Source: an uncultured virus (IMG/VR IMGVR_UViG_3300037400_004847) | Taxonomy: Duplodnaviria; Heunggongvirae; Uroviricota; Caudoviricetes | Reading direction: 5' to 3' (one strand) | IMG/VR virus record: IMGVR_UViG_3300037400_004847 | Length of the DNA: 64,000 bases | Shown here: positions 1,697 through 28,108 of the stretch, piece by piece | How positions within the stretch are numbered: the stretch's first letter is position 1 | Layout: every line of letters begins with the position of its first letter | Program-made: the position numbers and the translations under genes | The notes under the pieces: model-generated | Database searches by the model: none | Seen by the model: the letters and a program-made list of their open reading frames with translations, nothing else | What the model was told of the DNA's origin: nothing

Positions 1697-2290
1697 TTAC
1701 CAATTTTTTTCTATATACCATTCAGCCGCCTTTCTTGCCTCTTCTTTTGTGTTCCATTTTTGATTATTATTTATATCGACAATATCAAGATTCCCAATTT
1801 TGGCATACCAATGTTCACCACCGTCCCACTGTATATATCTTACTTCAGTAATAGATGGGCGTTCCTCGTCAGGAAAAGTCAATTCATCTTTATACGCTTC
1901 ACCAACAATATGGTAAAATCTTGTATCGATTGTTACAACCGGCATCCCCTTGGTCAAATATATTGTCCGACCTTTAATAAAATCATTAATTCTGTTATTA
2001 TAAGCAATATTTTCAATCTGAACCATATCTGAAATTAGGAAATTCTCAGTTATGGGATGTACTCTCTGTATTGCTTCTTCAAACTCATTTGTCGCATGAC
2101 TAACGCCAAGTTTGCCATTTTCGAATATCCTATGAGCCACTTTCCTCGACCCTTCTCTAATAACAGATGCCGGATATTTCCGCCAATGTTCTTTTATCTG
2201 TTCAACACTATCGGGAGAAAAATACCACACAGAATGGTCATTTTCAGATGGGTTAATTCTCTCAACTTTTACAAATTTATACTTACTCAT
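1697..2290 (-). CDS. Hypothetical protein
   Basis: 197 aa ORF with its own upstream promoter. Confidence 0.7.
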   Translation of the reverse strand: MSKYKFVKVERINPSENDHSVWYFSPDSVEQIKEHWRKYPASVIREGSRKVAHRIFENGKLGVSHATNEFEEAIQRVHPITENFLISDMVQIENIAYNNRINDFIKGRTIYLTKGMPVVTIDTRFYHIVGEAYKDELTFPDEERPSITEVRYIQWDGGEHWYAKIGNLDIVDINNNQKWNTKEEARKAAEWYIEKNW

Positions 2291-20079: not shown

Positions 20080-20152
20080 AGCACCATAACAGATTCAAAC
20101 TGTCCCCTTCAGATTGGAAGTCTGATATGCTAATCGCTAACACCAATGGTGC
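20080..20152 (-). tRNA. tRNA-Gly (TCC)
   Basis: UCAGA-CUUCCAA-UCUGA. Confidence 0.88.
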
Positions 20153-22370: not shown

Positions 22371-22481
22371 ACAGTACTTTCTTCTATGAACTTATAACAT
22401 ATCCCTCATACGGACAAGGTGACAGGATAGAGGTTATATTTTAGTAACGTTCCTTGTCATAACATTGTTACAAAGTGTTTG
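22371..22481 (-). ncRNA. Two-hairpin RNA with complementary loops
   Basis: GUAAC/GUUAC hairpin loop has GACAAGG; UAUAAC..UAUCC/GGAUA..GUUAUA hairpin loop has CCUUGUC. Confidence 0.45.
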
Positions 22482-22554
22482 TGGGGGAGGGTGGTTACGC
22501 TCCACCTCCTCTGGATTTTCAGTCCAGCGCTTCTACTAAGTTAGCTTCTCCCCC
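22482..22554 (-). tRNA. tRNA-Phe (GAA), atypical T loop
   Basis: CUGGA-CUGAAAA-UCCAG; T loop AGCGUAA. Confidence 0.85.
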
Positions 22555-22680: not shown

Positions 22681-22957
22681 AAAAGTAGTGTGTTATTACA
22701 CCAAAAACAAATTTACCTTTTACAAAGATGCGATGTCGCTTTCCTTTTCAGTCCTTTTTGTTATACTCTGTAAAGGTTGAACCTCATACTCTCTGGAGCA
22801 GTCACATGTGTACTGTTTACAGATTTATGTATCACGTTTCTTATTCCATTTATCCCACTAAGTAGCGTTTCCCTCTTTCACCAAGGGGCGTAATAATAGT
22901 TCGGGTGGTCAGTTACTCTTTAAAAGATGGCTACTTCCAAGCCAACTTACTACTTTT
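22681..22957 (-). ncRNA. 23S rRNA GTPase-associated-centre (H43/H44, L11 site) mimic with internal insert
   Basis: AAAAGUAG-UAAGUUGGCUUGGAAGUAGCCAUCUUUUAAAGAGU-[~213 nt]-GUGUAAUAACACA-CUACUUUU. Confidence 0.7.
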
Positions 22958-22980: not shown

Positions 22981-23592
22981 TCATAAATATGCAGTAATTT
23001 TAGTATAATTCGTATTTACAATACCGTTTTTTTTCATAAACCTTTTTAACGTTGTTAATGAAAAATTCATATTTTTAGCAATTTTCGTTGAACTTTCACC
23101 ATTATTAATTAAAGTTTTAATTTTTTCTATATCTTTTTCTGTCGGTTTTGAAAAAACCTTAATACCTGCTTCTATTTTAGAATTAATAAAACTTTCAACA
23201 TTTTTTTCTATTTCTATTTGTTTACACATTTCCATTTCTTCTCTAATTTTAGCATGTATTTCTTTATGACAGTTAGAACATACCATTATGCATTTATCGG
23301 CTTCTTCTTTTAAACGTTTTAAACTACGTATGTCACCATTGCCAATGCCAAAACTTTTTGTTTCAGGGCTTAAATGATGAAATTCAAGTGCGTCAATGCA
23401 TTTATCATATCCACAAATTTCACACTTACCTCCTTTATATTTAACAAGGTCTATTTTATTTCTTCTGCGTTTATCTATAACAGCATCTTTACGACACTCT
23501 TTACATCTCCATCTACCTTCAGATTTACAATAATAAAACTCTGTTAAACCATGTTTCGCACAAACATCTTTCCTTATTAATTCTTGTTCCAT
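22981..23592 (-). CDS. HNH homing endonuclease with C-terminal HTH
   Basis: KGGKCEICGYDKCIDALEFHH..KCIMVCSNCHKEIH. Confidence 0.88.
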   Translation of the reverse strand: MEQELIRKDVCAKHGLTEFYYCKSEGRWRCKECRKDAVIDKRRRNKIDLVKYKGGKCEICGYDKCIDALEFHHLSPETKSFGIGNGDIRSLKRLKEEADKCIMVCSNCHKEIHAKIREEMEMCKQIEIEKNVESFINSKIEAGIKVFSKPTEKDIEKIKTLINNGESSTKIAKNMNFSLTTLKRFMKKNGIVNTNYTKITAYL

Positions 23593-23696
23593 ATTATAAT
23601 TTATATATGTTTTATTTATATATAAATATATAATAAGACCAAAAAATTAACAATATTCATTAAACTTTTGGTCAAAAAATTTATGAATATTTTTTG

Positions 23697-23854
23697 CGGG
23701 AGCGGGGAATTACGATATCCCGACCTACTGATTAGCCACATAAATTGGAGTCGAACCAATGATTTTACTGTTAACCCTGCACAGCATTATGTGGGATGAT
23801 TTTTTCAGTTTACTCTGTATACAGTCAGTTGCTCTGCCTCTGAGCTACACTCCC
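23697..23854 (-). tRNA. tRNA-Asn (GTT) interrupted in the anticodon by an 86 nt insert (23735-23820)
   Basis: GGGAGUG/CGCUCCC-G73; ACUGA-CUGU|insert|UAA-UCAGU; atypical T arm. Confidence 0.7.
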
Positions 23855-23880
23855 ATGTAATTATTTTCTATCAAATTAAA

Positions 23881-24057
23881 TTCAACGCGGAATTCTGTTA
23901 GATATTTCTATCCTATATTTACTGAACTAATTCATCTTCAAACTGTTTACAGGCTCGTCCCGTAGAGTGGGCTTGTAATTACTGACTACCTGACTCCAAT
24001 TCGCCACCTGAAAGCAAAGACTGAATGTGGTTTTTCACCAATCCTCTCCGTTTTGAA
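23881..24057 (-). ncRNA. ~177 nt stem-closed RNA at the head of the tRNA operon
   Basis: UUCAA..CGGA/UCCG..UUGAA closure; UUACAAGC/GCCUGUAA hairpin; no minus-strand ORF. Confidence 0.4.
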
Positions 24058-24082
24058 GTTTTTTTGCTTTATTATGTTGTCC

Positions 24083-24100
24083 CAATATGTCAAAGAACTC
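24083..24100 (-). promoter_or_regulatory. rrn-type BoxA antitermination element
   Basis: GAGTTCTTTGACATATTG about 80 nt after the promoter. Confidence 0.65.
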
Positions 24101-24179
24101 GTTTGGAAACTTACATTCGGTTTTTACACCTCATTGTTCCATTTTCTGTCTCTCAGAAACCATTGTTTCTGTTTGACGA

Positions 24180-24213
24180 TGCAAAGGTACTAATAAAAAT
24201 TGAATCTACCAAG
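24180..24213 (-). promoter_or_regulatory. Bacteroidetes primary-sigma promoter of the tRNA/ncRNA operon
   Basis: CTTGG ... TAGTACCTTTGCA. Confidence 0.75.
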
Positions 24214-24652
24214 GAATTTCTCAACTTTTTTCTGACTTTAACTCTTTTTTACAATTAAAAGTCCATTTTTTCCTTTGTATACCTTATTATATAATAAAGA
24301 AAGCTGCGATTTTTACTTTTTAGGGTTTTATCACAGCTTTGGGGAAAATATATTGAGTTTTATCGGAATGTTCCTATGCGGCTCGTTTTATTATTTTCTT
24401 TTTTCGCTGTCCTTTGCAACCCTTTTTATTATCATTATAATCTTCTAACCCATGTTCAAACGCTGGTACAAAATTACAATACAACGCACTAACAATCGGA
24501 GAACAACTTTTAATTGCGGTTCCCTGAAGCCATTGTCTAATTTCTAATGTGTGTTTGTAACTTTTCAACATCTTTATTTGGGCGAATTTTAATATAAATA
24601 TAATAATACTTTTGAAAAAGTATCAATTTTTTAAGAAAAATTTTTAACTTTT

Positions 24653-26440: not shown

Positions 26441-28108
26441 TTAAATTTCAATAGCCTCAATCTCCTTAATCATTGCATCAAAACCTTTACAGTTAGATGT
26501 GATGAGGTCAAAAATCTTATCACTCCATCCTGCAATATTCAAAATCCTCTGTGACTTATGGAACACTGAGTTACCCTTAACTTGTCTGATATTGCAAACT
26601 ACAAAATTGCACATTGGGTTAATCTTTTTGAATTCCTTGAAAAGTTCTTGGAATCCTGCGCTATGTTCACTGCCACTATTATGTCCATACCAAGAAGTCT
26701 GTGCGCCATCACCAATCTGACAGTCAGAGAAAACAATTACGTTATCAACCTTCTTCTTTTCCTTAATACACTGACGGAGAAATTCATAAATACCAGCTTC
26801 AGTAGCACCTCCACACTTTGCACCCTCCTGATATGACCACTTATTAAAATCAAGCATTCTCTTTGAACGGTCAACCCTCACAGGAATAAGCCTATCACCA
26901 AAAAGACCGACATACACATCTTTCTGCTTCCATGCAAACATACTGCCGAACAAATGTCCAATCATTGAACTATTTGTATTAGAGAAAGCAGATACACGTG
27001 AAGAGCCACCGGCATCACCCCTCATCGAACCAGAGTCATCAATAAGAATTGCAGTATTACCTTCCAAGTCAGGAATATTCTCACATGAATATTCAAGTGC
27101 CTTCTCAATTGCATCAAGCACCTTTGTCTTGATACTATTAAACTCATCACGGCTTACCGTTACAGAGTCAATGTCACTCTCAAAAGCAATCGATGTGGAT
27201 GGAGTCTTACCGTTATAAGACATCTTTTCAATTTCCTCATATGCAGTAGCAAACCGGAAAGGAAGAAGTCTTGAATTGAGAACTTTCTGCTTGGTTGTCA
27301 ACTGTTCGATTGCATCATCAACACGGTTAGGTGCATATAGAATTATATTTCGCAAATTACGAAGCAGATTGAAGATAGGCATACCCTTCACATTGTCAAG
27401 AACCGCAGAAATTGCTTCCTGCTTTGCCTCACGCTTCTCTTCAGTAGTCTTTGCTGTCTGTCCTGCCTTAGACATTTCCTTTTCAAGAACCTTGCTTTCA
27501 TAAAGACCTGCAAGTGACTCACCGTTCATAAGACGCTTGTAAGCCTCCTCGTTCTTCTGTGTTGGAGTTGGGTGCAACAGATTTACAAGGTCAATGAGTT
27601 TCACCTGACGGCTGTTCATCTTGTACTTATCAATCTGATATGCATCAAGACGTTCAAGAGCCTCCTTAAAACCTTTCTTAATTGCATTAGGAATCTTACG
27701 AAGAGACTTATTTGTCAATTCCATTTCGTTAAGATTTCCGTAACAGGAAAGAATCTCAGACATGTCATCAGGACGTACAACAATCTTATTATAGAACCTC
27801 TTTGCCCACTCTGTACCGGCAGCACTACGAACAATGTATGCTGCAATCAGATGTGTTACTGAACGCATATTACCGTCATTACGCGCATAAATAGCCAACT
27901 TAGCAGCAAACAATGGGTCAACCTTATCAAGTTTGTCAATGATACGGTTCACAATCTCACGTTCCTTCTCATAATATGAGTCATGTAGGAATGTGGTCAT
28001 CACTGTGGAAACAAGTTCCTCTTTGTCATTCAACTTGAATGCGGCAGCACCCATTTCGTTAATCTCTGTTGGCTTCACACCTTCCGATTTCTTGTTAAAC
28101 TTACTCAT
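26441..28108 (-). CDS. rsr: Ro60/Rsr ortholog (TROVE plus vWA RNA-binding protein)
   Basis: NEMGAAAF, AIYARNDGNMRS, RPDDMSE, YQIDKY, LVNLLHP, MPIFNLLRNLRNI, SRLLPFRF, MIDAS DDSGSM, SDCQ, IAGWSD. Confidence 0.92.
   Translation of the reverse strand: MSKFNKKSEGVKPTEINEMGAAAFKLNDKEELVSTVMTTFLHDSYYEKEREIVNRIIDKLDKVDPLFAAKLAIYARNDGNMRSVTHLIAAYIVRSAAGTEWAKRFYNKIVVRPDDMSEILSCYGNLNEMELTNKSLRKIPNAIKKGFKEALERLDAYQIDKYKMNSRQVKLIDLVNLLHPTPTQKNEEAYKRLMNGESLAGLYESKVLEKEMSKAGQTAKTTEEKREAKQEAISAVLDNVKGMPIFNLLRNLRNIILYAPNRVDDAIEQLTTKQKVLNSRLLPFRFATAYEEIEKMSYNGKTPSTSIAFESDIDSVTVSRDEFNSIKTKVLDAIEKALEYSCENIPDLEGNTAILIDDSGSMRGDAGGSSRVSAFSNTNSSMIGHLFGSMFAWKQKDVYVGLFGDRLIPVRVDRSKRMLDFNKWSYQEGAKCGGATEAGIYEFLRQCIKEKKKVDNVIVFSDCQIGDGAQTSWYGHNSGSEHSAGFQELFKEFKKINPMCNFVVCNIRQVKGNSVFHKSQRILNIAGWSDKIFDLITSNCKGFDAMIKEIEAIEI

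What the first reader, a model, noticed from the sequence alone, without database searches (positions are those of the whole stretch)
23697..23854. tRNA-Asn anticodon interrupted by a nested mini-tRNA
Seen: removing 23735-23820 restores ACUGA-CUGUUAA-UCAGU. The 86 nt insert contains CCACAUAA/UUAUGUGG, a D-like arm GCUGU-GCAGGGUUA-ACAGU and a T arm AUUGG-UUCGACU-CCAAU with no anticodon arm (23736-23794), ending one base before the 3' junction. It is too short for a group I intron. The other 19 amino acids have intact tRNAs in this window, and this is the only stand-alone Asn gene. Inference: host tRNA-processing nucleases may excise the nested element and a ligase (phage RNA ligase at 17825) may rejoin the halves. 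That would be an unusual tRNA intron mechanism, or a way to hide the anticodon from a nuclease.
Basis: partly seen in the sequence, partly recalled or inferred. Interest (0 to 1): 0.85.

Follow-up and report, generated by a model that had tools for sequence, protein, structure and literature searches.

The report
Mobile tRNA-shaped intron in phage tRNA
This gut phage's asparagine tRNA gene is split in its anticodon by an 86-base insert made of a tiny knotted RNA and a miniature tRNA; the same build interrupts tRNAs for 13 amino acids in related phages with fixed ends, which points to an unexplained kind of intron whose cut sites can now be tested directly.

Summary
Observation confirmed. Intact alleles in kin fix the junction as tRNA-Asn, 35/36. 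The insert is homologous to the 'enigmatic' Lak-phage tRNA introns of Devoto 2019 (labelled Tyr there), so the phenomenon is published but undefined; the scan also met this family before on a Lak-type genome (e1-5959538). I collected 66 distinct members in 15 anticodons at four anticodon-loop positions. All share one build: N-U-A, a small pseudoknot-type leader, a 13-bp acceptor/T stack, a final C. With a 5'-only pattern, 28 of 29 best rejoinings ended at that C. Rejoined exons score like intact tRNAs and usually fill a gap in the tRNA set; copies move between tRNA types. The short leader also stands free in 5' UTRs of other phages with the same covarying pair. Group I, group II and BHB hallmarks fail. 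Best reading: a mobile intron cut out at intron-defined ends and sealed by a tRNA-repair ligase; self-splicing is the main rival. No spliced RNA was seen; RNA coverage was nearly nil.

The parts
23821..23854 (-). 5' exon of tRNA-Asn (acceptor 5' strand, D arm, anticodon stem, loop up to U35)
   Evidence: exons match the intact Asn of L559 at 64 of 72 positions, the differences mostly as compensating pairs
23735..23820 (-). 86-nt intron at 35/36
   Evidence: DNA run X2 has 2 contigs joining 23734 to 23821; Lak A intact versus Lak B interrupted orthologue; blastn to Lak introns
23818..23820 (-). N-U-A triplet at the 5' end
   Evidence: A at position 3 in 66 of 66, U at position 2 in 65 of 66 members (part of these were found with patterns that fixed the two bases)
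23795..23817 (-). Leader: 3-bp hairpin (23817-23806) with 6-nt loop and A-rich tail; loop G (23813) covaries with tail C (23798); short form of an H-type pseudoknot
   Evidence: G-C 14, A-U 9, no discordant case among 23 short-form introns; the long form pairs loop with tail with double changes
23736..23794 (-). tRNA-like domain: 8-bp acceptor-like stem, variable D-like hairpin (23786-23766), 5-bp T arm (23760-23744); 13-bp stack
23735..23735 (-). Terminal unpaired C, last base of the intron
   Evidence: 36 of 36 with a detector not requiring it; 28 of 29 with a 5'-only pattern
23697..23734 (-). 3' exon (U36-A37-A38, anticodon stem, short variable loop, odd T arm, acceptor 3' strand, G73; CCA not encoded)
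22981..23592 (-). Free-standing HNH endonuclease gene just downstream; possible helper of homing, not required
   Evidence: PHROG 2255, E 4.5e-30; a kin contig in run X20 replaces 23001-23853 by 87 other letters; HNH just downstream of 5 of 32 intron genes versus 15 of 376 intact genes
17825..18493 (-). ATP-dependent RNA ligase (PF09414), candidate sealing enzyme
   Evidence: shared with kin L490 and L494; family not specific to intron-bearing phages

Best explanation
The insert is a mobile, precisely bounded tRNA intron of a class distinct from group I, group II and archaeal/eukaryotic tRNA introns. Shown: one architecture with fixed ends, insertion without duplication at four positions of the anticodon loop, gain and loss at orthologous genes, movement between tRNA types, healthy exons. 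Inferred: the pre-tRNA is cut twice at sites set by the intron itself. One cut falls three bases before the pseudoknot-type leader, made by an endonuclease that the leader guides; the same leader serves as a free signal in phage mRNA leaders. The other falls after the first unpaired base (C) below the 13-bp acceptor/T stack, as a tRNA 3'-end nuclease cuts a tRNA with an 8-bp acceptor stem. The two halves, held by the tRNA fold, are sealed by a tRNA-repair ligase such as the phage's PF09414 enzyme. Neighbouring HNH genes may help some copies spread. My odds: spliced at all about 0.75; spliced by proteins as described about 0.45.
For: Junction fixed by with/without pairs: Lak A versus B Asn, run X2 contigs, window Lys versus L490 Lys (identical exons by eye). 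Exon health: rejoined median ARAGORN 120.5 (n=37) versus 116.6 for 428 intact genes; 26 of 37 have no intact gene of the same anticodon in the fetched regions, 18 of 28 observed versus 9.0 expected in large clusters. Ends are set by the intron, since the exon base before the cut is U 22, A 12, G 5, C 1 of 40 and the site varies 33/34 x1, 34/35 x16, 35/36 x32, 36/37 x17. 13-bp stack in 31 of 33 parsed, with at least three pair types at 11 of 13 positions. T-loop-like loop kept in 26 of 29 members found without asking for it (counted by eye). Free leader-plus-tRNA-like-plus-C units stand outside tRNA genes in 3 loci (L207, L526, L559), as expected of a cassette that is processed at both ends. 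PF09414 ligase in 5 of 5 near-complete virus records, one of them below the family cut-off and one bearing only the leaderless insert type. Jumbo phages carry such ligases for tRNA repair (PMC7824862, passages).
Against: No spliced RNA seen: three RNA runs gave depth 0, 1.7 and 0 over the element and hold contigs only. No candidate endonuclease found: PF01974 in 0 of 17 records; no shared protein other than HNH-type genes near the introns (20-kb regions only). The ligase family is in 11 of 25 control records, 7 of 16 near-complete, and was not found in 12 of 21 intron-bearing records, most of them fragments. One member (L557) has a tetraloop instead of a T loop and two have degenerate loops, which sits badly with elbow-reading host enzymes. 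The exact short leader was found in 0 of 401 host-phylum genomes, so a host enzyme with its own such sites is not indicated. 11 of 37 intron genes have an intact call of the same anticodon, and the Lak Phe exons score only 95.8. Healthy exons could also reflect recent insertion.
Confidence: 0.45

Rival explanations
1. A very small self-splicing or self-cleaving RNA: the pseudoknot with the U-A pair of bases and the terminal C is the catalytic core, the tRNA-like helix is a scaffold; the RNA cuts one or both junctions itself and ligates, or leaves ends for a repair ligase.
For: Boundaries are intron-defined and exon-independent; a few unpaired bases are nearly invariant (U2, A3, U9 often opposite U, final C); the T loop can be lost (L557); the leader stands alone before genes in phages and not in 401 host-phylum genomes; no shared splicing enzyme found; gut phages are known to use small ribozymes beside tRNAs (theta ribozymes, PMC10879173, passages).
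Against: The conserved core is only about 25-30 nt plus one helix, smaller than natural ribozymes I recall; no Rfam ribozyme match; U-A before the hairpin is kept in only 24 of 87 free copies; the T loop is kept in most members.
Confidence: 0.22
2. Unspliced selfish insert: a small tRNA-like RNA cassette lands in anticodon loops and kills the gene; the phage tolerates this because host tRNAs suffice, and the fold is kept for the cassette's own sake (decoy, Ro/Y-RNA-like partner or mobility).
For: No spliced read seen; free-standing copies exist; Lak A has an intact Asn beside the interrupted one; the phage has a TROVE gene and Y-RNA-like elements.
Against: Exons are as good as intact tRNAs and change by compensating pairs between L490, L494, L559 and the window while their introns have diverged to 67%; the interrupted gene usually replaces the only copy; up to four such genes in one cluster (L490, L496); insertion leaves no duplication or loss.
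Confidence: 0.2
3. One reading: RNase P and RNase Z excise the nested mini-tRNA and the phage ligase rejoins the halves.
For: 3' junction fits a cut after the first unpaired base; P and Z leave 3'-OH and 5'-P ends (recalled); a leaderless subtype whose insert starts at the first base of the inner stem exists (L016/L044, L048, L061).
Against: In this element and all 40 leader-bearing members parsed, the 5' junction is 24-36 nt upstream of the RNase P site; P plus Z would leave the leader in the anticodon loop.
Confidence: 0.05
4. DNA-level excision: the element is removed from the gene by recombination before expression, or serves mainly to break the target of the neighbouring HNH endonuclease.
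For: Intronless alleles exist as DNA in kin; HNH genes are about four-fold enriched just downstream (p=0.014).
Against: No terminal repeats or shared junction sequence; pairing accepts G-U and covaries as RNA; 27 of 32 intron genes lack a downstream HNH; Lak A has the HNH beside an intact Asn gene.
Confidence: 0.08

Closest known systems
'Enigmatic' tRNA introns of Lak megaphages (Devoto et al. 2019, PMC6784885; passages and Table S6 read, Fig. 4 legend only)
   Same: Direct homologue of their 'Tyr(GTA)' intron (blastn 73% over 126 nt, E 1e-10; 71% global). They noted that the Thr intron may encode a tRNA and that some genomes lack it.
   Different: In the passages and table I read they treated the introns one by one, found no Rfam match, gave no mechanism and called this one Tyr with eukaryotic 37/38 boundaries. 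The intact orthologue shows Asn 35/36. Their Asn, Phe, Thr and Gly introns are one family with a shared leader, 13-bp stack and final C.
Group I introns in bacterial tRNA anticodon loops
   Same: Anticodon-loop location, mobility, intron-defined splice sites, nearby homing endonucleases.
   Different: 61-167 nt; none of 40 ends in G; the exon base before the 5' site is U in only 22 of 40; no Rfam group I match.
Archaeal and eukaryotic tRNA introns (EndA/TSEN, bulge-helix-bulge, RtcB or Trl1)
   Same: Short, protein-spliced tRNA introns by cut, cut, ligate; archaeal ones occur at several positions (recalled).
   Different: No BHB central helix in 0 of 40; never at 37/38; PF01974 in 0 of 17 phage records; RtcB in 1 of 20 virus records.
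Theta (HDV-like) ribozymes of gut phages (PMC10879173, passages)
   Same: Small pseudoknotted RNA beside tRNA genes of Bacteroidota phages that defines a cut at its own 5' side.
   Different: Theta ribozymes lie 3' of the tRNA and trim trailers; this element lies inside the anticodon, has a single small pseudoknot and a tRNA-like domain, and no catalysis is shown.
Phage tRNA repair (T4 Rnl/Pnk type) and free-standing homing endonucleases in tRNA clusters (T4 SegB, PMC2330249, abstract start only)
   Same: Phage ligase able to seal anticodon-loop breaks; HNH gene beside the tRNA gene.
   Different: Here the break would be programmed by the phage's own intron; the HNH link is partial.

Membership tests
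Lak-type 'enigmatic' phage tRNA introns | Sequence homology and shared build with the Table S6 introns | tested here: met
Lak-type 'enigmatic' phage tRNA introns | Present/absent at orthologous tRNA genes with clean ends | tested here: met
Intron (any class) | Spliced RNA exists in vivo | tested here: inconclusive
   three RNA runs, contigs only, almost no cover of the element; the joined form was seen only in a DNA run
Group I intron | Terminal omega-G | tested here: not met
   0 of 40 end in G
Group I intron | U before the 5' splice site in a P1 helix | tested here: not met
   22 of 40
Group I intron | P3-P9 catalytic core / Rfam model | tested here: not met
   no match at E<=1; length 61-167 nt
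Group II intron | GUGYG start, AY end, domains I-VI | tested here: not met
   0 of 40 starts, 11 of 40 AY ends; too short
Archaeal/eukaryotic tRNA intron | Bulge-helix-bulge at the junctions or fixed 37/38 site | tested here: not met
   0 of 40 perfect central helices; no 37/38 case among 66
Archaeal/eukaryotic tRNA intron | EndA-type endonuclease available | tested here: not met
   PF01974 in 0 of 17 phage records; controls ring only in the 4 archaea
RNase P + RNase Z excisable nested tRNA | 5' junction at the first base of the inner acceptor stem | tested here: not met
   leader 24-36 nt in 40 of 40
RNase P + RNase Z excisable nested tRNA | 3' junction after the first unpaired base below the stem | tested here: met
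   that RNase Z cuts there is recalled
Known self-cleaving ribozyme classes (HDV/theta, twister, pistol, hammerhead, hatchet) | Match to a class model | tested here: not met
   Rfam scans of the window and of 15 free-leader loci gave no such match; no descriptor search was run
Ribozyme (new class) | Protein-free cleavage or splicing | not testable with these tools
   needs in vitro transcripts
H-type pseudoknot | Loop-tail pairing with compensating changes | tested here: met
   long form: 16 double changes, 0 of 500 shuffles, slid controls lower; pairs 11-26 and 10-27, whose 3' bases were outside the search pattern, pair in 29 of 29 and 27 of 29 introns versus 6 of 12 and 5 of 12 chance hits. 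The window's short form shows one covarying pair only.

The most novel reading that the evidence does not exclude
These elements are a further class of intron: 61-170-nt mobile tRNA introns of Bacteroidota jumbo phages, built by fusing a free phage RNA-cutting signal (a 25-30-nt pseudoknot that also sits in mRNA leaders of crAss-like and other phages) to a tRNA-derived helix. In the boldest form the pseudoknot is itself catalytic, making this the smallest natural self-splicing or self-cleaving RNA, able to insert at any bond of an anticodon loop.
Probability: 0.3. Interest if true: 0.93.

Novelty: new variant of a known kind. Interest (0 to 1): 0.74.

Why it matters
Bacteria are thought to splice tRNA only with group I and group II ribozymes (recalled). 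Devoto 2019 left the phage tRNA introns unexplained, and seven searches of the held library (CC-licensed PMC and bioRxiv only) showed no follow-up that defines them or the leader motif. The exact boundary rule, a 61-nt minimal member and natural with/without pairs turn the question into a one-gel experiment. If spliced, this is either a new small ribozyme or a new enzyme-based splicing route in bacterial cells; either could be a compact tool for RNA circularisation or conditional tRNA activation. It also corrects tRNA annotation in jumbo phages (Asn read as Tyr; 'missing' tRNAs that are interrupted), and exposes an uncatalogued phage 5'-UTR motif.

Tried and rejected
Pseudogene by decay: rejected; the odd T arm is shared by intact kin genes and exon changes compensate. 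Tyr or Ser outcome: tie in the window, rejected by intact orthologues, the short variable loop and G73. Assembly chimera: many double-T-loop hits in IMG/VR were chance or chimeric joins and were dropped, but this element is homologous to curated Lak genomes. RNA evidence: runs X19, X20, X21 barely cover the element; small shares are no evidence either way. RtcB as ligase: 1 of 20 virus records. Ligase as a marker gene: not specific. A shared splicing protein near the introns: none beyond HNH-type genes among 834 ORFs from about 20-kb regions; whole genomes were not clustered. A first exact pattern found nothing in viral contigs. The MAFFT alignment of whole introns was too poor in the variable middle to build a covariance model, so none was built. 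A script looking for free leaders in the window printed nothing, not even the known one, so it is uninformative; the long-form pattern has 0 matches in the window. Genes downstream of free leaders had no PHROG or phage tblastn match. Rfam: no family for the intron or the leader. A base triple between loop 1 and stem 2 in the long form was not supported.

Full report
Setting. The window is part of a large phage genome: 25 tRNA calls plus tmRNA, DnaK/DnaJ, ClpP, a sigma factor, methylases, a TROVE gene, an RNA ligase and several HNH genes. No whole genome is held. Runs that hold the stretch are mostly ruminant gut samples by their record. A Bacteroidota host is my inference from kinship with the Prevotella Lak phages.

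Observation. On the minus strand the gene reads 5' exon 23854-23821, insert 23820-23735, 3' exon 23734-23697. The insert folds as a 3-bp hairpin, an A-rich linker and an 8-bp stem enclosing a D-like hairpin and a 5-bp T arm, then one C. Its energy is ordinary (z -0.96), but the T-loop-plus-stem geometry occurred in 0 of 20000 shuffles. Among 1800 trial deletions, Ser, Asn and Tyr outcomes tie, so relatives are needed.

Identity of the gene. The insert matches Lak A1, A2, C1 and B1-B9 and is the intron that Devoto et al. list as 'Tyr (GTA)' (Table S6). Lak A carries the intact orthologue of the Lak B interrupted gene, and it is tRNA-Asn with the junction at 35/36. In DNA run X2, from another study than the best holder, two contigs skip exactly 23735-23820 (letters between not known). 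Close kin of the window phage (L490, L494) have either an intron-bearing orthologue with the same odd T arm or an intact Asn with the same D arm, T arm and 3' flank; L559 has an intact Asn that matches the window's exons at 64 of 72 positions, the differences falling mostly in compensating pairs. The second Asn call at 15109-15182 has A73, an extra flanking stem and A33 in L490; I take the interrupted gene as the only canonical Asn in the window.

A family. The four Lak intron types in Table S6 share one build, which the passages I read do not remark on. Most hits of the two-T-loop patterns were chance or chimeric and were dropped by a detector that demanded a tRNA after rejoining; duplicate false registers (SeC and Cys calls, four rows) were also dropped. 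The build is N-U-A, leader, a stack of 13 bp (8+5 or 9+4; 31 of 33), final C. Some scans fixed the C, so the fair tests are these: 36 of 36 with a detector blind to the last base, and, with a pattern for the leader alone and the 3' end chosen only by the best tRNA score, 28 of 29; the exception, L540, ends at C on inspection. Of the 43 distinct contexts in that test, 12 were unstructured chance hits and 2 were free units. Stem positions show many pair types. The middle varies from 7 to about 100 nt; some members keep nearly a whole tRNA, one has only a tetraloop-capped helix (L557).

The leader. In the long form the hairpin loop pairs with the six bases before the inner stem: 16 double changes, 0 of 500 shuffles, slid controls far lower (9 sequences). 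Two pairs whose 3' bases lay outside the search pattern are kept in 29 of 29 and 27 of 29 introns against 6 and 5 of 12 chance hits. This is an H-type pseudoknot stacked on the inner stem. The window has the short form, in which one loop base covaries with one tail base (G-C 14, A-U 9, none discordant). The short form also stands free: of 94 non-intron contexts, 65 are G-C, 22 A-U and 7 discordant (Fisher 2e-14, inflated by kinship); 73 of the 87 concordant ones have an ORF start within 56 nt, 0 of 7 discordant ones within 80 nt; they fall in about 20 groups by the downstream gene's first residues. One group is Crassvirales, before the gene that precedes the major head protein; cr131_1 has a variant hairpin there. 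It occurs once in each of 5 records checked, only inside introns in the 18 intron-bearing records checked, in 0 of 401 host-phylum genomes, and has no Rfam match. Three loci carry the whole unit, leader to final C, outside a tRNA gene, one of them 8 nt before an intact Asn gene (L207, L526, L559).

Is it spliced? Indirect evidence says probably. Rejoined exons score a median 120.5 against 116.6 for 428 intact genes; 26 of 37 have no intact gene of the same anticodon in the fetched regions, and in large clusters 18 of 28 against 9.0 expected (regions may miss distant tRNAs, though four records were completed). Against: 11 of 37 do have such a call, the Lak Phe exons score 95.8, and good exons could mean recent insertion. 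Direct evidence is absent: the three RNA runs laid hardly touch the element.

Mobility. Introns 91% alike sit in Tyr and Phe genes (L023, L071); only 25 of 66 have a nearest neighbour in the same anticodon; the window's nearest is a Phe intron at 74%. The window's intact Lys gene has exons identical by eye to the interrupted Lys of L490. A kin contig in run X20 replaces the interrupted gene plus the HNH gene by 87 other letters with near-identical flanks. HNH-type genes lie just downstream of 5 of 32 intron genes and 15 of 376 intact genes (p 0.014; L003 and L004 left out as near copies of L002), so homing help is possible but not required. How a copy reaches a new bond is not known; ligation of a freed intron into a nicked tRNA followed by copying to DNA is a guess.

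Mechanism. Group I, group II and BHB rules fail, and no EndA is encoded. The machinery must read the intron, since exon bases and positions vary. The 3' junction lies after the first unpaired base under the stack, the place where RNase Z cuts, also on tRNAs with 8-bp acceptor stems (recalled). The 5' cut falls before N-U-A; U at +2 and A/U at +1 recall the RNase E preference and a downstream structure guiding the cut (recalled, not tested). Such cuts would give 3'-OH and 5'-P ends that a PF09414 ligase could seal; that family is present in 9 of 21 intron-bearing and 11 of 25 control records, RtcB in 1 of 20 virus records. A catalytic role of the pseudoknot is the main rival: exon independence, invariant unpaired bases, a T-loop-less member and the phage-only free leader fit it; the very small core does not.

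What is known. Devoto 2019 (passages, Table S6, figure legend; preprint passages) reports the introns, their presence/absence and a possible tRNA inside the Thr intron, without mechanism. Crisci 2021 mentions them once in methods. Iyer 2021 (passages) covers phage RNA repair. Kienbeck 2024 (passages) covers theta ribozymes and has no mention of introns. Searches showed no paper defining the class or the leader; subscription journals and large supplementary motif lists, where the leader could be catalogued, were not seen. The scan's note e1-5959538 describes the same family in a Lak-type genome as hairpin plus mini-tRNA; I had reached this reading before seeing it, and the few lines shown do not mention the pseudoknot, the free leader or the breadth found here.

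Verdict. Real, conserved, mobile and probably spliced; a member of a published but undefined group that fails the tests of every known intron class. Interest 0.74.

Noticed in passing
window 14900-15720 (-), L490:4564-4681: Several elements begin with the same short head motif and extra flanking stem, some enclosing tRNA-like bodies (ARAGORN Pro 14939, Asn 15109, Rfam fragment 15222). In L490 the same head starts a weak YrlA match (34.5 bits, E 0.0006, below gathering) next to the TROVE gene: probably a phage Ro/Y-RNA set.
   Followed up: partly
window 26441-28108 (-): TROVE (Ro60-like) gene, shared with L490 and L502.
   Followed up: partly
window 18528-18649 (-): tRNA-shaped RNA whose anticodon arm is replaced by a branched domain, directly upstream of the RNA ligase; conserved in L490. 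Not of the intron family.
   Followed up: partly
window 22905-22950 (-): Short match to large-subunit rRNA (model positions 1182-1231, E 0.017) inside a non-coding stretch that kin contigs in RNA runs cover; looks like a mimic of the L11-binding region (label recalled).
   Followed up: no
window 23860-24300 (-): Conserved non-coding RNA just upstream of the Asn gene, weak DUF2693 match here and in L490, L494.
   Followed up: no
window 22481-22554 and 23697-23734: Phe and Asn tRNAs of this lineage have non-canonical T loops that begin with A; conserved in kin (L490, L494, L495, L559).
   Followed up: partly
window 20080-20152 (-): tRNA found by Rfam (49.4 bits) but not by ARAGORN; anticodon loop reads as Gly(UCC).
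   Followed up: no
L016/L044, L048, L061: Leaderless 44-46-nt inserts (acceptor-like stem plus T arm) that start at the first stem base in Asn, Lys and Thr genes; geometry fits RNase P plus a 3' nuclease.
   Followed up: partly
L128-L248, L577:4130-4160: Free 24-30-nt hairpin/pseudoknot leader motif in 5' UTRs of Crassvirales and other phages; no Rfam family; worth its own study.
   Followed up: partly
L207:about 2037-2141 (-), L526:400-, L559: Whole leader-plus-tRNA-like units outside tRNA genes; L239, kin of L207, has only the leader at that place.
   Followed up: partly
L011:1445-1521, L055: Complete CCA-ended tRNAs inside the anticodon loop of another tRNA; may be assembly chimeras.
   Followed up: no
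L486:11148-11262, 11565-11697, 15967-16085; L489:16043-16167: Other tRNA bodies with long inserts in the anticodon arm that do not fit this family.
   Followed up: no
L001:2850-3065, L002:8001-8170: Devoto's 'tRNA-Tyr(GTA)' intron genes are tRNA-Asn(GUU) with the intron at 35/36; near-identical intron ends sit in two different Asn bodies in Lak A and Lak B.
   Followed up: yes
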